Shown in pieces: positions 11,455 through 63,047 of a DNA stretch of 64,000 bases (positions are counted from its first letter, which is position 1; each line of letters begins with the position of its first letter). The notes beneath the pieces are model-generated. The model saw only the letters and a program-made list of their open reading frames with translations. It did not search any database and had not been told where the DNA came from. Source of the DNA: Candidatus Kaiserbacteria bacterium. GTDB lineage: Bacteria > Patescibacteriota > Minisyncoccia > Phycocordibacterales > UBA2100. A program made the position numbers and the translations under genes. The stretch lies in the NCBI GenBank assembly GCA_016186765.1, contig JACPLD010000002.1:110386-174385 (forward strand). Reading direction: 5' to 3'.

Positions 11455-11709
11455 TCATCCTGTCTCTTGCGTCGAATCTCCAGGAATAAATGGGAGTTGA
11501 TCGACGGAATTCCTGCTATTCAAATATGCTCCCCAGAAGTACAGGGCCCCGAAGCCAAGGAGGATGACAATGATAGCAGTTCCGATCCAAGCGCCAGCGC
11601 CAGCTTTTTTTGGAGCCCGGTTGTGTTCGGTGAGCATGTGCCCGGTGTCTGCGGGCGCGTTTCGCATGTTCATTGCAGGCGGCATGACACTATTATAGTA
11701 ATGAGCCAC
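11455..11709 (-). CDS. Small hypothetical membrane protein
   Basis: 84-aa ORF with one TM helix. Its 5' end overlaps the AGCCACTAGGG repeat; true start uncertain. Confidence 0.3.
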   Translation of the reverse strand: MAHYYNSVMPPAMNMRNAPADTGHMLTEHNRAPKKAGAGAWIGTAIIVILLGFGALYFWGAYLNSRNSVDQLPFIPGDSTQETG

Positions 11710-11729
11710 TAGGGTTTAGCCACTAGGGG
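11704..11729. repeat. Tandem dimer AGCCACTAGGGTT-TAGCCACTAGGGG (copy A)
   Basis: Seen in sequence. A near-identical dimer occurs again at 12303..12330; the two copies flank ppa. Confidence 0.6.
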
Positions 11730-12296: not shown

Positions 12297-12302
12297 GGAA
12301 TT

Positions 12303-12330
12303 AGCCACTGGGGTATAGCCACTAGGGTAG
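12303..12330. repeat. Tandem dimer AGCCACTGGGGTA-TAGCCACTAGGGTAG (copy B)
   Basis: Second copy of the AGCCACTAGGG dimer, immediately upstream of the ppa start. Confidence 0.6.
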
Positions 12331-18653: not shown

Positions 18654-19246
18654 GTATGAAAAACAAACGAGGCCTCACGATGATCGAAACGGTGGTATGG
18701 ATCGCGGTGTTTATTGCAGCGATGACCGCAGTTGTCGTGACACTCATTTATTTCTACCGCACGAACGCCTACTCGATCGAGCAAGCGAGCGCTGTCACTT
18801 CGGCGCAGCGCGGGCTCGAGCAAATCGTGCGTACGATCCGCGAGGGCGCCTATTCAAGCGAGGGCGCCTTTCCGATAGTTTCGATCGCTGCGAACGATTT
18901 CATCTTTTACGCCGACATCGATGAGGACACGCTCATCGAGCGTGTGCACTACTACATTTCGGGTACTAATCTCGTGCGCGGAGTAATCGAGCCGACGGGA
19001 AATCCGCCGGCGTACACAGCTCTCGAGGCAACCTCTACGATCGCTGAGTATGTCCGCAATGCTGAGCAAGGAATCACGACATTCCGCTACTATGACGAGC
19101 TCGGCAGTGAGATCACAAACTACGCGAACTGGACAGCCGTGCGTTTTGTGAAAGTGACGCTCACGATCGATGTGAATACTGCGAAACTTCCTGATCGAGT
19201 GACGTTTGAGTCTTCGGCAGCGATCCGCAACCTCATCGGCAAATGA
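18650..19246 (+). CDS. Prepilin-type N-terminal cleavage/methylation domain protein (pseudopilin)
   Basis: Classic class-III signal KRG|LTMIETVVWIAVFIAA. ATGA overlap with the upstream gene. Confidence 0.65.
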   Translation: MSMKNKRGLTMIETVVWIAVFIAAMTAVVVTLIYFYRTNAYSIEQASAVTSAQRGLEQIVRTIREGAYSSEGAFPIVSIAANDFIFYADIDEDTLIERVHYYISGTNLVRGVIEPTGNPPAYTALEATSTIAEYVRNAEQGITTFRYYDELGSEITNYANWTAVRFVKVTLTIDVNTAKLPDRVTFESSAAIRNLIGK

Positions 19247-19277
19247 AGTATGGAGTATAGAGTATGGAGTATGGAGG
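19245..19277. repeat. Heptanucleotide tandem repeat (GRAGTAT)x4: GAAGTAT GGAGTAT AGAGTAT GGAGTAT GGAGG
   Basis: Seen in sequence. The same repeat family recurs at 27155..27182 and, reverse-complemented, at 60144..60178. Confidence 0.6.
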
Positions 19278-20752
19278 ATGAGAAAGCGAGTGAATTTTCC
19301 CTCTATAGCCTATACGCCATACGCGATACGCTTGGCCTCGCGAAGCCGCGCGCGGCTTCGCGAGGCGTCACTGTTTTCCTCATTCTCGGTTTTATGGGAG
19401 TCTTCGCCATCATTCTTGGAACCATCTCGAGCTACGTGCTCACCCAAGGGCGCTACGGTCGCGCACTCTACGCGCGCGAGGTTGCCCTCAACGTCGCGGA
19501 GTCCGGCCTCGAGTACTACCGCTGGTTCCTCGCACACAACCCCTCGATCATGGATAGCGGTATAGGGCTCGTAAGTCCGTACACCTATGCCGTGAACGAC
19601 CCCGAGGGCGGCTCACTCGGCTCTGCCGAAGTAACGGCATCGGTAAATCTCCAGTGCGGAGCCGTACAGTGGGCGGATATTGTTTCAAAGGGAACCGCGA
19701 GTGCCGATCCCGTCTTACCGCGCACACTGTCCGTGCGATACATGCAGCCTTCTGTTGCGGAATATTCGTATGTGGTGAACACGAACGTGTGGGCGGGCTC
19801 GAGCAGAACCATTCGTGGCCCATACCACGGGAACGGTGGCGTTAGAATGGATGCAACCCACAATGCCGACGTGACGAGTGCCGTTTCGACATGGAACTGC
19901 ACGTCGAGCTACAACTGCAACCCGTCGCAACCAAATGCGCCGGGAGTCGTCGGCACGGGCTCGAATCCCGCACTCTGGACGTATCCCGTTCCAAACATCA
20001 ACTTCGCCGCGATCGCGATCGATTTCACGGATCTCCAGACAAAAGCACAGACGCAAGGCGGCATCTACTACGGCCCTGCAAGCGGCAGTGTGAACAACCG
20101 CGGCTACCATCTCATTTTTAATGCAGCAGGCACGGTGACGATATACCGAGTGACGGAGACTGACGGCTTCGACAGCTACTCGACTCAGTACAACTGGGGA
20201 ACGGAGTACAGCGAGATCGACAACCAGACCTTGCTCGGGACATTTGCTATACCCTCAAGCTGCAGCCTCATGTTCTTCCAAGATCGGGTGTGGGTAGAAG
20301 GTACCGTCAATGGGAAGGTCACCGTTGTCGCAGCAACGCCTTCCGACGGCGCTACGGCGCCGGACGCGTATCTCAATAACAATATTCTTTACGCCGCCTA
20401 CGATGGCACCGATGGGCTCACGATCGTCGCCGAGCGAAATGTCCTCATACCGCTTGTCGTGCCCAATGTCATGGAGATCCATGGCATCTTTATCGCGCAA
20501 AGCGGGCACTACGGTCGCGACTACTTCTCGACGAGCGATCTTTCTTCGCAGTACGATCCGTACGTGACGCGCAGTCAGCTCACGACGGTGGGCACTGTCG
20601 TTTCAAACGGACGCACGGGCACCGCATGGAGCGACGGCACCGGATTCACGACGCGTCTCGATTACTATGACCAGCAGCTCGCCTTCTCACCGCCACCCTT
20701 TACGCCGGTTGCCTCAACTGACTACAAATACGCGCTGTGGCGCGAGCAATGA
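19250..20752 (+). CDS. Large hypothetical pilus-associated membrane-anchored protein
   Basis: N-terminal hydrophobic anchor (VTVFLILGFMGVFAIILG), ~450-aa extracellular part, co-oriented with the pilin genes. Start lies within the heptamer repeats; the ATG at 19271 is an alternative. Confidence 0.45.
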   Translation: MEYRVWSMEDEKASEFSLYSLYAIRDTLGLAKPRAASRGVTVFLILGFMGVFAIILGTISSYVLTQGRYGRALYAREVALNVAESGLEYYRWFLAHNPSIMDSGIGLVSPYTYAVNDPEGGSLGSAEVTASVNLQCGAVQWADIVSKGTASADPVLPRTLSVRYMQPSVAEYSYVVNTNVWAGSSRTIRGPYHGNGGVRMDATHNADVTSAVSTWNCTSSYNCNPSQPNAPGVVGTGSNPALWTYPVPNINFAAIAIDFTDLQTKAQTQGGIYYGPASGSVNNRGYHLIFNAAGTVTIYRVTETDGFDSYSTQYNWGTEYSEIDNQTLLGTFAIPSSCSLMFFQDRVWVEGTVNGKVTVVAATPSDGATAPDAYLNNNILYAAYDGTDGLTIVAERNVLIPLVVPNVMEIHGIFIAQSGHYGRDYFSTSDLSSQYDPYVTRSQLTTVGTVVSNGRTGTAWSDGTGFTTRLDYYDQQLAFSPPPFTPVASTDYKYALWREQ

Positions 20753-27154: not shown

Positions 27155-27182
27155 TGAAGTATGGAGTATGAAGTATGGAGTA
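27155..27182. repeat. Heptanucleotide tandem repeat GAAGTAT GGAGTAT GAAGTAT GGAGTAT
   Basis: Fills the 47-bp divergent spacer between the HIT gene and the recJ start. Confidence 0.6.
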
Positions 27183-27198
27183 TCAAGCATGAGATACA

Positions 27199-28875
27199 AT
27201 GGAGCCGATGCAACTTTCAGAACTCGTAAGGTCGCTTCTCGAAAAACGAGGTATCACGGATCCCGCCAGTATTTCAACGTTTCTCAATCCCGATTATGAA
27301 CGTGATACGCACTCACCGTTTCTGCTTGCGGGGATGGAGCGGACGGTTGCCCGTGTTCTCTCTGCTATTCGCAACGGCGAGCGAATAGCGATCTATGCGG
27401 ATTTCGATTGTGACGGCATCCCGGGTGCGGCGCTTATCTCGGATTTTTTCAAAAAGGTAGGATACTCGAATTTCGAGGTATACATCCCGCACCGCGACCG
27501 CGAGGGCTACGGGTTTCATACAGAGGCGATTGAGGAACTCACGCAAAGCGGTGTCTCCCTCATTATCACGGTCGATGTCGGGACGAATGCACTAGAAAGT
27601 GTTTCATTTGCAAAAGAGAAAGGTATCGATGTGATTGTTACCGATCACCATGAGCCGACGGGAGCGCTGCCAGATTGCATTGCAGTGCTCAACCCGAAAT
27701 TAGGCGAGTACCCATTTCGTGATCTCTGCGGTGCAGGGGTTGCTTTCAAGCTTGTTCAAGCACTCCTCCTCGAGGGAAAGAAACAGGGGCTCGAAGCTTT
27801 TGTGAAGGTTCCCGACGGCTGGGAGAAATGGCTTTTGGATCTCGTGGCGATCGCAACGGTCGCGGATCTCGTGCCGCTCGTCGGCGAAAATCGAACACTC
27901 GTGCACTTCGGTCTCAAAGTGCTTCGCAAATCGCCGCGAGCCGGGATCTCTGCGCTCTGCAATGCGCTCCGTATGCGAAAGAGCGACCTCACGGAGGAAG
28001 TGATCGCGTTCTCGATCGCGCCGCGCATTAATGCCGCTTCGCGTATGGACGAGCCCGAGTTTGCCTTCAGACTTCTTGTCACGACCGATCACCGCGAAGC
28101 GGAGAGAATCACGGCGCACCTCGAGGAGCTGAACGCTCGGAGAAAAACAGCAGTGGCGAGTGTTGTGAAGGCAGCAAAGCGCACGGCACGAACACGCTTT
28201 CGCTCCGACGAGCGCATTATCGTTCTGGGCTCTCCGGAGTGGAAACCGGCGTTATTGGGTCTTGCCGCGAATTCACTTGTGGAGGAGCGCGGGGGCGTTG
28301 TATGTCTCTGGGGGCGTGATGCAAGGGGGCGCATCAAGGGTTCGTGCCGCTCTGACGGCTCCATCTCGGTCGTGCAACTTTTCTCGAATGCACGGGACGC
28401 GTTCATCGAATTTGGTGGGCACGAGAGATCTGGGGGCTTTACGATTTCACATGAGCGCATACACACGCTCCACGAATCGCTCGCATCCGCAAGCAGCGCG
28501 CTCGCAGAGGCTCCACGTATGGAGGAGCAAACACATGATGCGCTCATTTCACTCCCCGAACTCACTGGATCGCTCTTTGAAGAAGTTTCGAAGCTCGCGC
28601 CATTCGGCGTCGGCAATCCAAAACCGCGTTTTCTCGTTTCTTCCATCACTGTTTCCTCTGTGCGCAAGTTTGGCCGCGAGAGCAACCATGTTGAGGTTCT
28701 TGTTTCATGTGAGCGGACCGGTATTTCCGCGCGAGCGTTCGATTTCTTCAATTCACCTGAAGATTTTATGCACGTTCCCAAGATCGGGAACTCCGTGCGT
28801 CTCCTCGCCACGGTAGAGAAAGACAATTTTCGTGGTGGCATTGCGCTCAGGCTCGTGGATGTTCTCGGTGCCTAG
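27199..28875 (+). CDS. recJ: Single-stranded-DNA-specific exonuclease RecJ
   Basis: DHH motifs (DFDCDGI, DHHEP) and DHHA1 region. Confidence 0.85.
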   Translation: MEPMQLSELVRSLLEKRGITDPASISTFLNPDYERDTHSPFLLAGMERTVARVLSAIRNGERIAIYADFDCDGIPGAALISDFFKKVGYSNFEVYIPHRDREGYGFHTEAIEELTQSGVSLIITVDVGTNALESVSFAKEKGIDVIVTDHHEPTGALPDCIAVLNPKLGEYPFRDLCGAGVAFKLVQALLLEGKKQGLEAFVKVPDGWEKWLLDLVAIATVADLVPLVGENRTLVHFGLKVLRKSPRAGISALCNALRMRKSDLTEEVIAFSIAPRINAASRMDEPEFAFRLLVTTDHREAERITAHLEELNARRKTAVASVVKAAKRTARTRFRSDERIIVLGSPEWKPALLGLAANSLVEERGGVVCLWGRDARGRIKGSCRSDGSISVVQLFSNARDAFIEFGGHERSGGFTISHERIHTLHESLASASSALAEAPRMEEQTHDALISLPELTGSLFEEVSKLAPFGVGNPKPRFLVSSITVSSVRKFGRESNHVEVLVSCERTGISARAFDFFNSPEDFMHVPKIGNSVRLLATVEKDNFRGGIALRLVDVLGA

Positions 28876-48288: not shown

Positions 48289-48325
48289 AGTCAAAGGGCA
48301 AAGGGCAAAAGTTAGAAGTAATGCT

Positions 48326-49168
48326 ATGAAAACGTACAAACCCACAACAAAAAGCTCTCGTCAGATGACGCGCGTCGAGTTCCGCAAGCTCTTGAGCGGC
48401 GGAAAACGCCACAAAGCACTCACGAAGGGGAGAAAGCATTCGGGCGGCCGCAACGCATTTGGCCGAATCACGATGCGTCACAAGGGTGGTGGGCACAAGC
48501 GCGCCTATCGGCTCGTTGATTTCTACTTCGACAAGAAAAACATTCCTGCACGCATCACCTCGATCGAGTATGATCCATTTCGCTCCGCGTTTATCGGGCT
48601 TGCGATCTACCAAGACGGTGAGAAGCGATACGTCGTGGTGCCGAGAGCCATAAAGGTCGGCGACTCGTTCGTCGTCTCTGAAAATGCACCGGTACAGCTC
48701 GGCAACCGTCTTCCTCTTTCGAAGATTCCCGTCGGAACGTTTGTCTACAACATCGAGTTGAAGCCGGGAGGGGGTGCGCGCCTCGCACGTGCCGCGGGCA
48801 ACTATTGCGAGGTCGTCGCGCAGGATGCCCCCTACACACATCTGCGCCTGCCGAGTATGGAAGTGCGTCGCGTAATCGGCAGCGCATGGGCATCGATCGG
48901 TGAGGTTTCCAACGAAGAGCATCGTCTCGTGAATATCGGCAAGGCGGGCCGCTCGCGCTGGATGGGTAGGCGTCCCACGGTTCGCGGAAGCGCGATGAAT
49001 CCTGTCGATCACCCGCACGGCGGTGGCGAAGGGAGAGCCGGGCGCGGCCACAGGCGGCAGCGCACCCTCTGGGGCAAGCCCGTGGGCAAGGGGCAAAAGA
49101 CGCGCCGGCCCAAAAAGTATTCCAACGTTTTCATCGTGTCGCGAAGAAAGGTTGGAAAACGCTCATAA
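48326..49168 (+). CDS. rplB: 50S ribosomal protein L2
   Basis: MKTYKPTTKSSRQM... and GGGEGR motif. ORF track starts at 48248. Confidence 0.9.
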   Translation: MKTYKPTTKSSRQMTRVEFRKLLSGGKRHKALTKGRKHSGGRNAFGRITMRHKGGGHKRAYRLVDFYFDKKNIPARITSIEYDPFRSAFIGLAIYQDGEKRYVVVPRAIKVGDSFVVSENAPVQLGNRLPLSKIPVGTFVYNIELKPGGGARLARAAGNYCEVVAQDAPYTHLRLPSMEVRRVIGSAWASIGEVSNEEHRLVNIGKAGRSRWMGRRPTVRGSAMNPVDHPHGGGEGRAGRGHRRQRTLWGKPVGKGQKTRRPKKYSNVFIVSRRKVGKRS

Positions 49169-60143: not shown

Positions 60144-60178
60144 CATACTGCATACTTCATACGCTATACTTATTCCAT
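60144..60178. repeat. Heptanucleotide repeat family, reverse orientation (revcomp AAGTAT AGCGTAT GAAGTAT GCAGTAT GG)
   Basis: Immediately upstream of the ATG of the 956-aa ATPase gene. Confidence 0.5.
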
Positions 60179-63047
60179 GCCTCCAATGTCAATGGAGCAA
60201 AAAGCCCGTGTCCCGCTGGAGTCGCTGCAAAAATTCAAATCTCCCGAGGAGGAGCTGAAATATTTGCGTGAGCGGGTGAAGGAGAAAGAGGCAGAGCTTG
60301 AGGCCACACCGAATCGTTTTGAGAGCGATCGCATCGCGAAGCGCGAGGTCGCGGAGTACGCGCAAGTGCCGCAGGCAACCATTCTTCACGAGGCGTATGC
60401 AATGCCAGAGCATGAGACAGTGCGCCACATGTTGAAACTCGAACCCGAAACGCACGACGTACAGATAGATGAACTTTTAAAGATCGTTTCGGAGCGGGGC
60501 ATCAGAAATGCGCTCGCCGTGTGCGCAAAACTGAAAAATGCCCACCTCGAAGACGATTTTCACCGAACACTCGTTGCCTACATCGCCGAAGGACTTCCTG
60601 AGAAGGGGACACCCCCACCGCAGAAAATCCGCCGCGCGCTCGACCTCGTACTTTTTATGATAGATCCGCAGGCGCACGGCGAGCGCGAGAAGCAAGACAG
60701 TAGTCAGCACCGCCTCGAACAGATCCTTTCCTCGTCAGAACAACTCTACGCGGGGCTTGTCTCACTCATTTCCTCGCACGAAGGATTCTCCCTTGAGATC
60801 GCGGTGCCCGAGGGCACAGAAGCTGCGATCCTCTACCTCGCGGTGCCACGGCAAAAGAAAGATCTCGCCGAGCGGCTCGTAGCCTCTGTGTTCCCCAACG
60901 CGCGCATCGAAGAAGAGCGCGGTGACTACAACATTTTCAACTATGAGGGCTACCACGCGGCTGCCGTAGCGACTCTTGCAGATACACCCGCGTACCCGCT
61001 CAAAACTCCCGAGATGTTCGAGCACGACCCTATGAACGTGCTGCTCGCGGCGTTCGCGAAGATCGCGAAACACGGCGAGGGTGCCGCGCTCCAGATCCTG
61101 GTTGGTACTGAGGGTGAGCGCTACAACCTGCACTACAAGAAGATGATCCGGCGGCTCGAGAAGGGAAAGATGCTCCATCGTGCGCTCGGCGTGCCGGAAA
61201 CCGCGATTGGCGAGATGCTCTACGATTTTTCGCACATGGCGTTCAAGTCGGAAAAACAGCTCCAAGCGGAGAAGGACCGCGCCTTCAGGCGGCAAGCAGA
61301 CAAGGTCGCCTCCGAGGAGATAGAACGGAAGATCAAGAGCCGTATTTGTCCTACTATCATCCGTCTTGCCGCTTCTGCTGCGACAAAAGAGCGCGCGAAC
61401 GCCATTTTGGAAAACCTCATCGCGCCGTTTAATCAGTACGACGATCCGAAGGGAAACCATCTCGTATTCAAGAAGGTGTCGAACTGGCACTCGAACTCGT
61501 TCCTGCGCGATTTTACGTACCGAATTTTTGATCATTCTCTCGCGATACCGCTTTCGCTTGCCGAGATAACCTCTATCTTCCACTTCACGGCCGAGCGCGT
61601 GCACACCTCACGCGAGCTCAAACGAAGCTTCGCAAAGCAAGCGCCCGCGCCGGTGGAGATGCCTCTCGGTGGCATCGTGCTCGGCGTCAATCGCTACGGC
61701 GCAGAGGAGCGGCCGGTGCACTTTGGGGCGACTGATCGTCTCCGCCATTGCTATGTGATAGGGCAGACCGGCACCGGAAAGACGGGACTTTTGAAGAACA
61801 TGATCATTCAGGACATCAAAAACGGAGAAGGCGTCGCCTTTGTCGATCCGCACGGCAACGACATCGAGGATGTACTCGCAGCAGTTCCGGCGGAGCGCGC
61901 ACAAGATGTCATCTACTTCGATCCTGCCTACACCGCGCGCCCGATGGGCCTCAACATGCTCGAGTACGACAGGAGTCGGCCCGAGATGAAAACCTTTGTT
62001 GTTGACGAAGTGTACGGCATCTTCCGGAAGCTCTACGCGGACGTGCCGGAGGCCTTTGGTCCCATGTTCGAGCAGTACTATAGGAACGCCGTGCAGCTTG
62101 TGGTCGAGGATCCCGATACCGGCAGCACGTTCGTAGAGATCCCGCGGGTGTTTGCCGATACCGCGTTCCGCAACCTTAAGCTCTCGCGCTGCCAGAATCC
62201 AATTATCGTGCAGTTCTGGAAGAAAATCGCTGAAGCTGCGCAGGGAGATCCTAGCTTAGAGAACGTTGCGCCCTACATCACCTCGAAATTCGACGTCTTT
62301 CTCACCAATGACATCATGCGGCCGGTCGTATCGCAGGAGAAATCGGCATTCGACTTCCGCAATATCATGGACGAACGGAAGATTTTTCTCGCGAATCTCT
62401 CAAAGGGTCGCCTCGGCGACAGGAACACTTCACTTCTTGGCCTCATCCTCGTCTCGAAGTTTCTGCAAGCCGCATTCTCGCGCGTCGATACGAAGGGCGA
62501 GCTTCCGGTTTTCTATCTCTATATCGACGAGTTCCAAAACTTCGCCACACCCTCGATCGGCACCATTCTCTCCGAGGCCCGCAAATACAAGCTCTCTCTT
62601 ACGATAGCGCACCAATTCATCGCGCAGCTCGATGAAAAGATCCGTGACGCTGTGGTGGGGAACGTCGGCACGAAGGCGGCGTTTCGCGTCGGCACGACCG
62701 ACGCCGAGTTCCTCGAAAAGCAGTTCCAGCCGATTTTTAGTCAGCAGGATCTTGAAAATCTTCCGAATCGCCATGCCGTCTTGGCGCTTCTTGTAAACGG
62801 TGTCCCTGCGCGGCCGTTCTCGATTCAAACCGAGAATCTGCCGCCCTTTGACTACAGCAAAGTTCCCCCGCTCAAAGAGCTCTCCTATCAAACCTATGGC
62901 CGCGATCGCGAGGAGGTGGAAGCCGAGATGCGCAAGAAGTTCGAGGCAAGCTATGGTTCGACGAGCTCACCACAAGTGGCCGTGCCCGCCTCGGATCTCG
63001 GCGGTGCGCTCGCTGGTCTCCCCGACCCCACGTCGCTGTACCAGTGA
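60177..63047 (+). CDS. Large (956 aa) FtsK/HerA/VirD4(TraD)-like P-loop ATPase with a ~500-aa N-terminal domain of unknown function
   Basis: Walker A CYVIGQTGTGKTG, Walker B FYLYIDEFQNF, C-terminal TraD/VirD4-like region. N-terminal half has a coiled coil and no recognised domain. Confidence 0.6.
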   Translation: MPPMSMEQKARVPLESLQKFKSPEEELKYLRERVKEKEAELEATPNRFESDRIAKREVAEYAQVPQATILHEAYAMPEHETVRHMLKLEPETHDVQIDELLKIVSERGIRNALAVCAKLKNAHLEDDFHRTLVAYIAEGLPEKGTPPPQKIRRALDLVLFMIDPQAHGEREKQDSSQHRLEQILSSSEQLYAGLVSLISSHEGFSLEIAVPEGTEAAILYLAVPRQKKDLAERLVASVFPNARIEEERGDYNIFNYEGYHAAAVATLADTPAYPLKTPEMFEHDPMNVLLAAFAKIAKHGEGAALQILVGTEGERYNLHYKKMIRRLEKGKMLHRALGVPETAIGEMLYDFSHMAFKSEKQLQAEKDRAFRRQADKVASEEIERKIKSRICPTIIRLAASAATKERANAILENLIAPFNQYDDPKGNHLVFKKVSNWHSNSFLRDFTYRIFDHSLAIPLSLAEITSIFHFTAERVHTSRELKRSFAKQAPAPVEMPLGGIVLGVNRYGAEERPVHFGATDRLRHCYVIGQTGTGKTGLLKNMIIQDIKNGEGVAFVDPHGNDIEDVLAAVPAERAQDVIYFDPAYTARPMGLNMLEYDRSRPEMKTFVVDEVYGIFRKLYADVPEAFGPMFEQYYRNAVQLVVEDPDTGSTFVEIPRVFADTAFRNLKLSRCQNPIIVQFWKKIAEAAQGDPSLENVAPYITSKFDVFLTNDIMRPVVSQEKSAFDFRNIMDERKIFLANLSKGRLGDRNTSLLGLILVSKFLQAAFSRVDTKGELPVFYLYIDEFQNFATPSIGTILSEARKYKLSLTIAHQFIAQLDEKIRDAVVGNVGTKAAFRVGTTDAEFLEKQFQPIFSQQDLENLPNRHAVLALLVNGVPARPFSIQTENLPPFDYSKVPPLKELSYQTYGRDREEVEAEMRKKFEASYGSTSSPQVAVPASDLGGALAGLPDPTSLYQ

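What the first reader, a model, noticed from the sequence alone, without database searches (positions are those of the whole stretch)
19245..19277. Heptanucleotide (GRAGTAT)n tandem repeats at three gene starts: possible slipped-strand phase-variation or a translation-initiation element
Four tandem 7-nt units (GAAGTAT GGAGTAT AGAGTAT GGAGTAT) sit exactly at the start of the large pilus-associated gene (19250). Near-identical four-unit tracts occur at 27155..27182, in the divergent HIT/recJ spacer, and in reverse orientation at 60144..60178, just upstream of the giant ATPase.

A unit length of 7 is not a multiple of 3, so any copy-number change shifts the frame or the spacing of the downstream ATGGAG start, the classic mechanism of microsatellite phase variation of surface and accessory genes. 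The unit also contains the AAGTATG context that precedes many start codons in this genome (for example rplW, rplP, rplB), so the tracts may instead act as multi-start or ribosome-loading enhancers.
Basis: seen in the sequence. Interest (0 to 1): 0.55.

Follow-up and report, generated by a model that had tools for sequence, protein, structure and literature searches.

The report
Stuttered promoter-box heptad repeats at gene starts
Three short runs of a 7-base repeat in a Kaiserbacteria (candidate phyla radiation) genome are tandem re-copies of the promoter box or start-codon context that sits just before a gene; they belong to a repeat class that is common in this lineage, and nothing indicates that they act as on/off switches.

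Summary
The three tracts are real: 8 pattern matches against 0.02 expected by chance. The organism is a Candidatus Kaiserbacteria. It is poor in Shine-Dalgarno sites, and many of its genes have a TAnnnT -10 box 6-7 nt before the ATG, which is the leaderless-mRNA layout.

Each tract keeps one unit in exactly that register:
- Site 1: TAGAGT-N7-ATG19271.
- Site 2: CATACT-N6-ATG of the HIT gene on the minus strand.
- Site 3: TATACT-N6-ATG60177.

Orthologous loci in relatives carry a single copy of the same box, or of the stop/start junction, at the same place. The tracts are therefore lineage-specific 7-bp tandem reiterations of that box or junction.

In about 1 Mb of related loci chosen by protein, period-7 arrays number 90, against 15 or fewer for any other period from 4 to 12. 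Of the 95 arrays found before duplicates were removed, 89 lie at gene 5' ends.

Phase variation is not supported. The tracts have 4-5 imperfect units, the spacing from the proximal unit to the ATG does not depend on copy number, and the tracts are identical in every independent sample assembly recovered.

Site 1 also pairs with an inverted heptad array and a GC palindrome inside a long prepilin-type leader. Relatives carry the same kind of 5' hairpin module. Its function, the sharp 31-32 nt array length and the non-phylogenetic distribution of arm families remain unexplained.

The parts
19245..19279 (+). Site 1, heptad array 1: GAAGTAT GGAGTAT AGAGTAT GGAGTAT GGAGGAT. It begins inside the TGA stop (19244-19246) of the 198-aa prepilin-like gene and holds ATGs at 19250, 19264, 19271 and 19278, which together cover all three frames.
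   Evidence: It is identical in 3 sample assemblies. Relatives carry a single-copy T(G/A)AGTATGG junction at this place.
19258..19263 (+). TAGAGT, a -10-like TAnnnT hexamer created by the variant unit AGAGTAT. It lies 7 nt before ATG 19271.
   Evidence: TAnnnT with an N6/N7 spacer occurs at 15 of 60 genes, against 0.38 expected per offset. Its use as a promoter is inferred.
19271..19273 (+). Most likely start codon of the ~490-aa pilus-cluster protein. ATG 19250 is the in-frame alternative. No canonical start codon lies between 19271 and the conserved RG|VT.
   Evidence: Inferred from the sequence.
19303..19330 (+). Site 1, heptad array 2 (CTATAGC CTATACG CCATACG CGATACG). It is the imperfect inverted partner of array 1 and lies in the leader-peptide coding region.
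   Evidence: hairpin; MFE -67.6 kcal/mol, z = -4.4; best ungapped complementarity between the two arms 0.80.
19335..19366 (.). Perfect 32-nt palindrome GCCTCGCGAAGCCGCG|CGCGGCTTCGCGAGGC. Its last codon, GGC (19364-19366), is the Gly at position -1 of the predicted prepilin cleavage motif SRG|VTVF.
   Evidence: The Logan contigs end inside this palindrome. Analogous GC palindromes occur in relatives.
27156..27190 (-). Site 2 array. On the HIT-gene (minus) strand it reads ATGCTTG ATACTCC ATACTTC ATACTCC ATACTTC.
   Evidence: It is identical in 5 sample assemblies.
27158..27163 (-). CATACT, the proximal unit. It acts as a -10-like box 6 nt (TCACAT) before the HIT ATG (27151-27149, minus strand). 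Relatives have a single TATACT at this position.
27181..27186 (-). TTGATA, a -35-like hexamer 17 bp upstream of CATACT.
   Evidence: 9 of 12 matches. Such matches are about as frequent as in shuffled sequence, so this evidence is weak.
27195..27210 (+). recJ promoter and start: TACAAT (27195-27200), a 7-nt spacer, then ATG 27208.
   Evidence: TACAAT or TAGAAT at N6-N7 is conserved in 15 or more orthologous spacers.
60144..60171 (+). Site 3 array: CATACTG CATACTT CATACGC TATACTT.
   Evidence: An independent sample assembly has the same sequence.
60165..60179 (+). TATACT -10 box (60165-60170), 6-nt spacer TATTCC, then ATG 60177 of the 956-aa TraG/VirD4-like ATPase.
   Evidence: Orthologs L210 and L211 have a single TATACT-N6-ATG and L212 has TATAAT-N6-ATG; none has an array.
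12302..12329 (-). A heptad array of a different family (TACCCTA GTGGCTA TACCCCA GTGGCTA), ending 6 nt before the pyrophosphatase ATG (12295-12293).
11698..11725 (-). Heptad array TAGTGGC TAAACCC TAGTGGC TCATTAC, lying directly against TATAAT (11697-11692), a 6-nt spacer and ATG 11685.
48292..48319 (+). Heptad array CAAAGGG CAAAGGG CAAAAGT TAGAAGT in the rplW-rplB intercistronic spacer, ending 6 nt before ATG 48326.

Best explanation
The tracts are short heptanucleotide tandem arrays of the 'long simple sequence repeat' / STRR type. They arose in place by 7-bp tandem duplication (replication slippage) of the sequence that sits immediately 5' of a start codon.

This Kaiserbacterium rarely uses Shine-Dalgarno sites. 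It starts many transcripts at the A of the ATG, with a TAnnnT -10 box 6-7 nt upstream. The duplicated heptad is that -10 box plus one base: TATACT(N) on the gene's strand, which reads AGTATR on the other strand. At site 1 the duplicated heptad is the stop/start junction TGA-AGT-ATG-G. The three tracts look alike because their seeds look alike, not because one tract was copied to the other places.

In each tract the copy nearest the gene keeps the functional register. It presumably serves as the -10 box for the HIT gene (site 2), the TraG-like ATPase gene (site 3) and probably the pilus-cluster gene (site 1, where the array also supplies the ATG). The distal copies are degenerating duplicates (TATACT to CATACT or CATACG). 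They are tolerated because the DNA upstream of the -10 box, and the cleaved prepilin-type leader peptide, are weakly constrained. The tracts are not contingency switches.

Shown here:
- The tracts exist and are not due to chance.
- The genome has the leaderless -10 geometry.
- Relatives have a single copy at the same places.
- Period 7 dominates the tandem repeats of the lineage, and the arrays lie at gene 5' ends.
- The tracts are invariant across samples.

Inferred:
- Slippage as the mechanism of origin.
- Promoter use of the proximal unit.
- Neutrality of the distal units.
For: Leaderless geometry. A TAnnnT hexamer lies N6 (11 genes) or N7 (4 genes) before the start codon in 15 of 60 genes, against 0.38 expected per offset. 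Ten of the 15 use start codons I never revised, and 3 of the 5 revised starts match independent gene calls.

Site 3. Orthologs with 84-91% identical ATPase have ...gcTATACTttttgcATG (L210, L211) or TATAATtctcggATG (L212) and no array. The window has CATACTG CATACTT CATACGC TATACTt attcc ATG.

Site 2. Six orthologous HIT-recJ spacers are only 14-38 nt long and read GGTAGTATACAAT or CCAGTATACAAT. These are overlapping face-to-face -10 boxes, TATACT for HIT and TACAAT for recJ; each is about N6 from its ATG wherever the start can be read. In the window, L127 and L151, an array starts exactly at the HIT -10 box and repeats it with its own unit: AGTATG(G/A) or AGTATAC/AGTCTAC. L168 has an ATAGCGT array at the same place but in a less clean register.

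Site 1. Of 70 orthologous junctions, 31 are 19-67 nt long with shuffle z-scores between -1.2 and +1.4. Several of the short ones read T(G/A)AGTATGG once (L140, L176, L170), as does the longer, array-free L143. L126 has 4 units and the window has 5.

pilC promoter. The window has TATACT-N7-ATG. L142 and L167 have the same box preceded by CGGTATA or CGCCATA arrays whose last unit is that box.

Lineage-wide pattern. There are 90 dereplicated period-7 arrays, against 15 or fewer for any other period from 4 to 12, in 1.02 Mb of loci chosen by a protein and not by a repeat. Of the 95 arrays found before dereplication, 89 lie in intergenic DNA or in the first 150 nt of an ORF, which together make up 22.6% of the sequence.

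Wider distribution. I estimate about 1 match by chance.

Literature. Heptanucleotides are the most abundant long-SSR class in many prokaryotes, and polymerase slippage has been proposed as the cause (Mrazek 2007, as summarised in PMC4679880). TAACTGA heptamer repeats end within a few nt of start codons in SD-poor contexts.

Invariance. Site 1 is identical in 3 samples, site 2 in 5 and site 3 in 1.
Against: - Array length is sharply peaked at 31-32 nt (30 of 90 arrays, none above 41). A simple slippage equilibrium does not predict this.
- Many arrays come as complementary inverted pairs that bracket a start codon. The median within-locus arm complementarity is 0.80, against 0.56 between loci. 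Site 1 folds far better than shuffled sequence (z = -4.4 and -7.5).
- Arm sequences can be nearly identical between genomes whose flanking protein is only 49-53% identical, while the loops are unrelated. Close relatives (92.6% identical) can carry different families. This suggests selection on the arms or exchange of them, not neutral decay.
- At site 1 the TAGAGT box is not conserved in relatives, so its use as a promoter is a guess.
- No transcription start sites or read-level data could be examined.
Confidence: 0.6

Rival explanations
1. The heptad arrays are functional cis-elements read by a trans-acting factor or needed as structure. At site 1 and at similar 5' modules, array, start codon, inverted array and GC palindrome form an mRNA (or DNA) stem-loop that controls translation initiation, mRNA stability or processing of pilus-cluster cistrons. 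Single arrays would act as multi-site platforms, about five 7-nt sites each, for an RNA- or DNA-binding protein such as a cold-shock protein, ribosomal protein S1, or a ribbon-helix-helix repressor of the omega type.
For: - Array length is quantised at 31-32 nt, which is five copies of a 3-4 nt core at 7-nt spacing.
- The arms are complementary within a genome but differ between genomes, and at least 8 distinct arm pairs occur.
- The same module sits at the 5' ends of three successive prepilin-like genes in L151, L203/L167 and L134.
- Arm 1 matches at 29 of 32 nt between L138 and L167, although the proteins are 49% identical and the loops are unrelated.
- GC palindromes co-vary with the R-G codons of the cleavage site.
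- Variant units such as CTTAAAA appear to avoid in-frame stops in arm 2.
- Long-form junctions have z-scores down to -7.5, while short forms lie near 0.
- From my own knowledge: the omega repressor of plasmid pSM19035 binds contiguous 7-bp heptads at promoters, and cold-shock domains bind about 7 nt.
Against: - One genome carries several unrelated heptad families. The window alone has GRAGTAT, TAGTGGC/TACCCTA and CAAAGGG. A genome of about 1 Mb with few regulators would then need many specific readers.
- About half of the orthologs lack the module and have short, unstructured leaders, so the module is dispensable.
- Sites 2 and 3 have no partner array and fold worse than shuffled sequence.
- Single-copy ancestral states explain the unit sequences without any reader.
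- No Rfam family matches the region.
- No binding protein was identified.
Confidence: 0.2
2. The tracts are slipped-strand phase-variation (contingency) loci. Gain or loss of a 7-nt unit switches the downstream gene by shifting the reading frame (site 1) or by changing promoter spacing (sites 2 and 3).
For: - The unit length is not a multiple of 3.
- Site 1 precedes a pilus-cluster (surface) gene.
- At site 2 the array fills the 17-bp spacer between a -35-like TTGATA and the CATACT box, so a 7-bp step would destroy that spacing.
- Unit number and array presence differ between species.
Against: - The tracts have only 4-5 imperfect units, and no perfect run is longer than 14 nt.
- Whole-unit changes leave the last ATG (19271) in frame and leave the spacing from the proximal -10 box to the ATG unchanged. 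This follows directly from the sequence.
- The tracts are identical in all independent sample assemblies of this strain.
- Arrays across the lineage cluster at one length instead of spreading.
- Two of the three genes are housekeeping-type (a HIT hydrolase and a conserved ATPase).
- The -35-like match is no better than chance.
Confidence: 0.07
3. The paired arrays at site 1 and related loci are small non-autonomous mobile hairpin elements (REPIN- or MITE-like) that insert at gene boundaries. The single arrays are their remnants.
For: - The architecture is an inverted pair: arms of about 31 nt, a spacer of 28-76 nt and a total length of about 95-130 nt.
- One genome can hold several copies of one family.
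- Family distribution does not follow phylogeny.
- In L167/L203, inverted GTATGGC/GCCATAC arrays flank an inserted four-helix-bundle gene between pilB and pilC.
- In L094 the same GRAGTAT two-arm module sits upstream of rplI.
Against: - Loops differ in length and sequence between copies within one genome, and they contain each gene's own start codon and N-terminal codons. The arms therefore bracket host sequence and do not travel as one unit.
- Arm 1 typically begins at the true stop codon of the upstream gene.
- Sites 2 and 3 are explained by local duplication of a resident -10 box.
- No transposase or RAYT gene was seen near the arrays, although I made no systematic search.
Confidence: 0.08

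Closest known systems
Heptanucleotide long simple sequence repeats (Mrazek, Guo and Shah 2007) and cyanobacterial STRR heptamer repeats (Mazel et al. 1990; cited from my own knowledge)
   Same: - Head-to-tail copies of a 7-nt unit lie in non-coding DNA.
- Heptamers are the dominant tandem-repeat period of the lineage (90 arrays, against 15 or fewer for other periods).
- Such repeats occur across many phyla.
- The proposed origin is polymerase slippage.
   Different: - These arrays are short (4-5 units) and sharply length-limited at 31-32 nt, unlike long variable tracts.
- The unit can be traced to a resident -10 box or start junction that is single-copy in relatives.
- Many arrays occur as inverted pairs that bracket start codons.
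- I found no description of such repeats in Patescibacteria.
TAACTGA heptamer direct repeats of marine Beggiatoaceae, cyanobacteria and Bacteroidetes (MacGregor 2015, PMC4679880)
   Same: - Sets of 2-6 heptamer copies end within a few nt of start codons.
- They lie in SD-poor intergenic regions, including ribosomal-protein operons.
- A link to leaderless or S1-dependent initiation has been discussed. In the window, compare the rplW-rplB spacer array at 48292-48319.
   Different: - There, one unit (TAACTGA) is used genome-wide and always in forward orientation. Here there are many unit families per genome, in either orientation, with the unit equal to the local -10 box or start context.
- Inverted pairs are almost absent there: one case is reported.
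Simple-sequence contingency loci for phase variation (Haemophilus, Neisseria, Moraxella)
   Same: A tandem repeat with a unit that is not a multiple of three sits at a gene start or inside a promoter. One of the three genes belongs to a pilus cluster.
   Different: - The tracts are too short and too imperfect.
- Their geometry makes reading frame and -10 spacing independent of copy number.
- No variation was seen between sample assemblies.
REP/REPIN extragenic palindromic doublets
   Same: Two inverted arms of about 30 nt, separated by a short spacer, form a long imperfect hairpin between genes. Families are genome-specific, and one genome can hold several copies.
   Different: - The arms are built from heptad tandem repeats.
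- The spacer holds the host gene's start codon, and one arm is translated as part of a leader peptide.
- No RAYT transposase was seen.
- Genome-wide copy number is unknown.
Leaderless-mRNA promoters (-10 box about 6-7 nt before the ATG), as in Actinobacteria and Deinococcus
   Same: TAnnnT lies at N6/N7 before the start codon in 15 of 60 genes. The box is conserved at orthologous promoters.
   Different: Here the -10 box is reiterated 3-4 times at 7-bp spacing upstream of the functional copy. I know of no description of such stuttered -10 boxes.

Membership tests
Heptanucleotide LSSR / STRR-type tandem repeat | Head-to-tail copies of a 7-nt unit, more frequent than chance | tested here: met
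   8 matches against 0.02 expected. Tandem Repeats Finder reports period 7 at all three sites.
Heptanucleotide LSSR / STRR-type tandem repeat | Period 7 is the prevailing tandem-repeat class of the genome or lineage | tested here: met
   90 dereplicated period-7 arrays against 1-15 for each other period from 4 to 12, in 1.02 Mb of Kaiserbacteria-related loci plus the window.
Heptanucleotide LSSR / STRR-type tandem repeat | Preference for non-coding DNA | tested here: met
   89 of 95 arrays lie in intergenic DNA or in the first 150 nt of the longest ORF, which together make up 22.6% of the sequence.
Heptanucleotide LSSR / STRR-type tandem repeat | 'Long' tracts, meaning many copies that vary between strains | tested here: not met
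   The tracts have 4-5 units. Length peaks at 31-32 nt and none exceeds 41 nt. The tracts are identical across samples.
SSR contingency locus (phase variation) | A perfect or near-perfect tract long enough to be hypermutable | tested here: not met
   Neighbouring units differ (GAAGTAT, GGAGTAT, AGAGTAT; CATACTG, CATACTT, CATACGC, TATACTT). The longest exact repeat is 14 nt.
SSR contingency locus (phase variation) | A change of one unit alters the reading frame or a critical promoter spacing | tested here: inconclusive
   Frame from the last ATG (19271) and the spacing from the proximal -10 box to the ATG do not depend on copy number; this follows from the sequence. Only the TTGATA-17-CATACT spacing at site 2 would change, and that match is at chance level.
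SSR contingency locus (phase variation) | Copy-number polymorphism within a population | tested here: not met
   Consensus assemblies from 3 samples (site 1), 5 samples (site 2) and 1 sample (site 3) are identical. Read-level minor variants could not be tested with these tools.
TAACTGA-type start-proximal heptamer repeats | Direct heptamer repeats that end within a few nt of a start codon in an SD-poor genome | tested here: met
   The gap from array end to ATG is 0-9 nt in most non-pilin cases. The window's upstream regions are SD-poor.
TAACTGA-type start-proximal heptamer repeats | Unit TAACTGA, used genome-wide in forward orientation | tested here: not met
   The units are GRAGTAT/CATACTN and several other families, in both orientations.
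Leaderless-mRNA -10 promoter element | A TAnnnT-like hexamer 6-7 nt upstream of the start codon | tested here: met
   Site 3 has TATACT-N6 and site 1 has TAGAGT-N7. Site 2 has CATACT-N6, which keeps A2 and T6 but has C at position 1.
Leaderless-mRNA -10 promoter element | Conservation of the box at orthologous promoters | tested here: met
   Site 3: L210, L211 and L212. Site 2: L132, L134, L139, L143, L144, L150 and L151. The box is not conserved at site 1.
Leaderless-mRNA -10 promoter element | Transcription start at the A of the ATG | not testable with these tools
   This needs 5'-end mapping from metatranscriptomes or cultures.
REP/REPIN mobile palindromic doublet | An inverted pair of arms that forms a hairpin in extragenic DNA | tested here: met
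   At site 1, arrays 19245-19279 and 19303-19330 pair. 19 adjacent array pairs occur in related loci.
REP/REPIN mobile palindromic doublet | Many dispersed near-identical full-length copies and an associated RAYT transposase | not tested
   Only windows of up to 22 kb per genome were available. Loops differ between copies within one genome, which argues against this.
Prepilin-type (class III) signal peptide on the site 1 gene | A leader that ends in Gly, followed by a hydrophobic segment (G|F/V/L-T-L-I-E type) | tested here: inconclusive
   The motifs are KRG|LTMIE (198 aa), QRG|VTLLD (603 aa) and SRG|VTVFL (500 aa), conserved in homologs. No Pfam or NCBIfam model reaches its cut-off, and the best hit is ComGE at E = 0.037.

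The most novel reading that the evidence does not exclude
Kaiserbacteria and other Patescibacteria may carry a previously undescribed class of 5' gene-boundary module. It consists of a roughly 31-nt array of 4.5 heptads, a short loop that holds or abuts the start codon, and an inverted copy of the array. A GC palindrome that ends at the prepilin cleavage codons often follows.

The arm families are conserved between genomes whose flanking protein is only about 50% identical, and they are swapped between close relatives. The fixed length would reflect a dedicated reader of five 7-nt sites, either a protein or an RNA duplex. On this reading, window site 1 is a member of the class, and sites 2 and 3 are half-modules.
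Probability: 0.2. Interest if true: 0.75.

Novelty: new variant of a known kind. Interest (0 to 1): 0.45.

Why it matters
The finding would otherwise be filed as a candidate phase-variation switch, and that reading does not hold.

What is there is informative for candidate phyla radiation biology in three ways:
- It documents leaderless-type promoters (a -10 box 6-7 nt from the ATG) and a GTATG start context in a Kaiserbacterium.
- It shows that the lineage's dominant tandem repeat arises by reiterating exactly these core elements.
- It shows that gene callers extend ORFs through such arrays, which produces spurious or inflated N-termini (MEYRVWS..., SGYWLVA...).

The paired-array hairpins at prepilin-like gene starts have a fixed length and arm families that do not follow phylogeny. 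They may be a lead to how SD-less internal cistrons are expressed in these uncultivated bacteria, and that question is testable.

Tried and rejected
- **Known RNA families.** An Rfam scan of the whole window at gathering thresholds found only four tRNAs. A permissive scan of 19150-19450 found only a meaningless miRNA hit on the palindrome. Four related loci gave nothing.
- **Intrinsic terminator at site 1.** The scan calls no terminator at the palindrome.
- **Shine-Dalgarno role for the GGAG in the unit.** Rejected, because very few genes in the window have an SD-like sequence at the right distance and arrays in relatives lack GGAG.
- **A single origin for the three tracts, spread by copying.** Rejected in favour of local seeding, because relatives have single-copy seeds at all three places.
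- **Assembly artefact as the cause of the 31-32 nt length mode.** Considered and rejected. The arrays are imperfect, both arms share the length, the contigs come from several assemblers, and much longer heptad arrays are assembled in other phyla.
- **Inversion switch (inverton).** Rejected, because the loops of 28-76 nt are too short for recombinase-mediated inversion. This rests on my own knowledge.
- **Literature on heptamer repeats in Patescibacteria.** The search found nothing. The search on leaderless genes in the candidate phyla radiation found nothing relevant. The Mrazek 2007 paper is not held and is cited through PMC4679880.
- **Exact-protein look-ups.** Look-ups for the 198-aa and 500-aa products found no record. 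Site 1 was reached through the T2SSF protein instead.
- **Prepilin motif near AGTAT-type arrays in other Patescibacteria loci.** My strict filter found none.
Full report
**Observation.**
- Site 1 is 19245-19279: GAAGTAT GGAGTAT AGAGTAT GGAGTAT GGAGGAT. It starts inside the TGA stop of the preceding 198-aa gene.
- Site 2 is 27156-27183: GAAGTAT GGAGTAT GAAGTAT GGAGTAT, followed by a degenerate CAAGCAT.
- Site 3 is 60144-60171 and reads CATACTG CATACTT CATACGC TATACTT on the + strand.

A two-unit pattern allowing one mismatch hits 8 times, against 0.02 expected by chance. Tandem Repeats Finder reports period 7 at all three sites.

**Organism and gene context.**
- Homologs of the flanking proteins are named Candidatus Kaiserbacteria or Parcubacteria.
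- Site 1 lies in a type IV pilus cluster of T2SSE, T2SSF and then genes of 603, 198 and about 500 aa.
- The N-termini of these three genes carry prepilin-like motifs: QRG|VTLLD, KRG|LTMIE and SRG|VTVFL. No curated model reaches its cut-off; the best hit is ComGE at E = 0.037.
- Site 2 lies between a HIT hydrolase gene on the minus strand and recJ.
- Site 3 lies between purD and a conserved 956-aa TraG/VirD4-like ATPase gene.

**The genome uses leaderless-type promoters.** Upstream regions rarely contain a Shine-Dalgarno sequence. A TAnnnT hexamer lies 6 nt (11 genes) or 7 nt (4 genes) before the start codon in 15 of 60 genes. The expectation is 0.38 per offset. Ten of these 15 use start codons I never revised. 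Three of the five revised starts match independent gene calls on Logan contigs. GT occupies positions -2/-1 of 13 of 53 ATG starts, against 6% of all ATGs.

**Each tract holds one unit in the functional register.**
- Site 3: TATACT (60165-60170), TATTCC, ATG 60177.
- Site 2, minus strand: CATACT (27163-27158), TCACAT, ATG 27151. recJ has its own TACAAT (27195-27200), a 7-nt spacer and ATG 27208. That start aligns with the ortholog in L127, which reads TAGAAT-N6-ATG.
- Site 1: the variant unit creates TAGAGT (19258-19263), which lies 7 nt before ATG 19271.

**Relatives have one copy where the window has four or five.**
- Site 3: three orthologous loci with 84-91% identical ATPase read gcTATACTttttgcATG (twice) and TATAATtctcggATG. 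None has an array.
- Site 2: six orthologous HIT-recJ spacers are only 14-38 nt long and read GGTAGTATACAAT or CCAGTATACAAT. These are two overlapping face-to-face -10 boxes. Wherever the start codons can be read, each box lies about 6 nt from its ATG. In the window, L127 and L151, a heptad array begins exactly at the HIT box and repeats it, each with its own unit. L168 has an ATAGCGT array at the same place, but its register relative to the HIT ATG is unclear.
- Site 1: of 70 orthologous junctions, 31 are 19-67 nt long with shuffle z-scores between -1.2 and +1.4. Several short ones read T(G/A)AGTATGG once, as does the longer, array-free L143. L126 has four units.
- pilC promoter: the pattern is the same. 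The window has TATACT-N7-ATG. L142 and L167 have the same box as the last unit of a CGGTATA or CGCCATA array.

I conclude that the tracts arose in place by 7-bp tandem duplication of the -10 box or the start junction. They resemble one another because TATACT is the reverse complement of the AGTATR start context.

**The lineage is rich in such arrays.** I fetched 80 orthologous loci by protein and not by repeat. A lag-p self-match scan found 90 dereplicated period-7 arrays in 1.02 Mb of these loci plus the others fetched and the window. Every other period from 4 to 12 gave between 1 and 15. Of the 95 arrays found before dereplication, 89 lie in intergenic DNA or in the first 150 nt of the longest ORF, which together make up 22.6% of the sequence. 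Outside the pilin genes, arrays usually end 0-9 nt before a start codon. In the window, other families occur at 12302-12329, at 11698-11725 (lying directly against a TATAAT-N6-ATG) and in the rplW-rplB spacer at 48292-48319. Tandem AGTATNN x4 occurs in at least 120 stretches of the species-representative genomes and in at least 120 viral contigs. I estimate about one chance match in the genome collection.

**Phase variation.** The evidence is against it.
- The tracts are short and imperfect.
- Loss or gain of a whole unit leaves the last ATG of site 1 in frame. It also leaves the spacing from the proximal -10 box to the ATG at sites 2 and 3 untouched.
- Contigs assembled independently from different sequencing runs are identical to the window through site 1 (3 samples), site 2 (5 samples) and site 3.

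These contigs are 100% identical to the window over many kilobases, so they represent one clone. Consensus assemblies also hide minor alleles, so this test is weak. The one geometry that a 7-bp step would break is TTGATA-17-CATACT at site 2, and that match is at chance level.

**Site 1 has more to it.**
- Array 1 pairs with an inverted array at 19303-19330.
- A perfect 32-nt palindrome follows at 19335-19366. Its last codon is the Gly before the predicted cleavage site.
- The region folds at -67.6 kcal/mol (z = -4.4). The stop-to-Gly segment has z = -7.5. Sites 2 and 3 fold worse than shuffled sequence.
- Homolog N-termini are conserved only from RG|VT onward. The extensions upstream look like translated heptads.

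Across relatives the long-form junctions (85-185 nt) share one layout. Arm 1 is often (TAG N4)n and starts at the true stop codon of the upstream gene. The start codon lies in the loop or just before arm 1. Arm 2 lies inside the leader-peptide coding region. A GC palindrome often ends at the R-G codons. In L151, L203/L167 and L134 the same module precedes all three prepilin-like genes.

Median arm complementarity is 0.80 within a locus and 0.56 between loci. Array length peaks sharply at 31-32 nt (30 of 90 arrays, none above 41).

Arm families do not follow phylogeny. The window and L127 have 92.6% identical mature proteins but carry different families. L138 and L167 have 49% identical proteins but share arm 1 at 29 of 32 nt, with unrelated loops. 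The same GRAGTAT two-arm module precedes rplI in L094. Inverted GTATGGC/GCCATAC arrays flank an inserted four-helix-bundle gene in L167/L203. No Rfam family matches.

**Interpretation.** The best-supported account is local slippage-type reiteration of core initiation elements. This makes the tracts a new variant of the known heptanucleotide LSSR/STRR class. They are closest in position to the TAACTGA repeats of Beggiatoaceae.

That account explains the unit sequences, the positions and the single-copy ancestral states. It does not explain three things: the fixed array length, the paired hairpins, and the conservation and swapping of arm families.

These unexplained points keep two further readings open. 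One is a functional 5' module read by a protein or acting as RNA structure. The other, less likely, is a REPIN-like mobile element. I give the local-reiteration account 0.6, a functional heptad module 0.2, phase variation 0.07 and a mobile hairpin element 0.08.

**What I could not do.** I had no read-level data, no transcription start sites and no whole genomes. The site 1 promoter, the neutrality of the distal units and the prepilin assignment are inferences.

Noticed in passing
window 19335-19366: A perfect 32-nt GC-rich palindrome lies inside the 5' coding region and ends at the Gly codon of the predicted prepilin cleavage site. Logan contigs from several samples end inside it. Similar palindromes co-vary with the R-G codons in relatives (L151, L159, L154, L169, L157, L146).
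   Followed up: partly
window, 15 gene starts (for example 13800, 15609, 23930, 32875, 34623, 35300, 37903, 58849, 60177): A TAnnnT -10 box lies 6-7 nt before the ATG, with almost no Shine-Dalgarno sites. This suggests that first genes of operons are transcribed as leaderless mRNAs. Internal cistrons favour GT at positions -2/-1 and a stop-GT-ATG junction.
   Followed up: yes
window 27199 vs 27208; 20667 vs 20790; 11709 vs 11685; 12322 vs 12295: Longest-ORF start codons are probably wrong for recJ, tpiA, an 84-aa membrane protein and the pyrophosphatase. The shorter starts fit the -10/N6 geometry or an array ending 6 nt upstream. Ortholog evidence supports only the recJ start, and an independent Logan gene call supports only tpiA.
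   Followed up: partly
window 11698-11725 and 12302-12329 (minus strand): A second heptad family (TAGTGGC / TACCCTA, 14-nt super-period) sits directly upstream of two neighbouring minus-strand genes. The same family forms the site 1 hairpin arms in L127, L139, L141 and L157.
   Followed up: partly
window 48292-48319: The heptads CAAAGGG CAAAGGG CAAAAGT TAGAAGT lie in the rplW-rplB intercistronic spacer, 6 nt before the likely rplB start at 48326. This parallels the heptamer repeats reported in ribosomal-protein operons of Beggiatoaceae.
   Followed up: no
L167 4034-4488 and L203 5706-6160: A 123-aa four-helix-bundle (23S rRNA IVS-type) gene is inserted between pilB and pilC. It is flanked by inverted GTATGGC and GCCATAC heptad arrays, and the right-hand array supplies the pilC TATACT box.
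   Followed up: no
L094 6580-6650: A Patescibacteria MAG carries AGTATGG x4 right after the stop of a peptidase S41 gene. The inverted partner CCATACACGATACGCGCC sits just before the rplI start. This is the same two-arm family as window site 1, at an unrelated gene.
   Followed up: partly
L127 12487-12496 and ~2128-2137: The closest public relative (93% identical protein) has runs of N in its assembly. One lies inside the HIT-recJ heptad array and the other just upstream of the site 1 junction. Assemblers appear to struggle in and near these arrays.
   Followed up: no
L006-L125 and L218-L297: Tandem AGTATNN arrays of 4 or more units are widespread in Bacteroidota, Ignavibacteria, Atribacterota, Anaerolineae, Planctomycetota, cyanobacteria, Patescibacteria and viral (including giant-virus) contigs. 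In several Patescibacteria loci (L007, L044, L045, L087, L124) they occur as inverted pairs.
   Followed up: partly
L212 2942-3020 and 3600-3618: Heptad arrays (AGTCAAC/AGTTTAC, TTCACTA, ACAGTTT) fill the rpsH-rplF and rplF-rplR spacers in one Kaiserbacteria relative. L210 and L211 have almost no arrays in 22 kb, so array load differs strongly between genomes.
   Followed up: no
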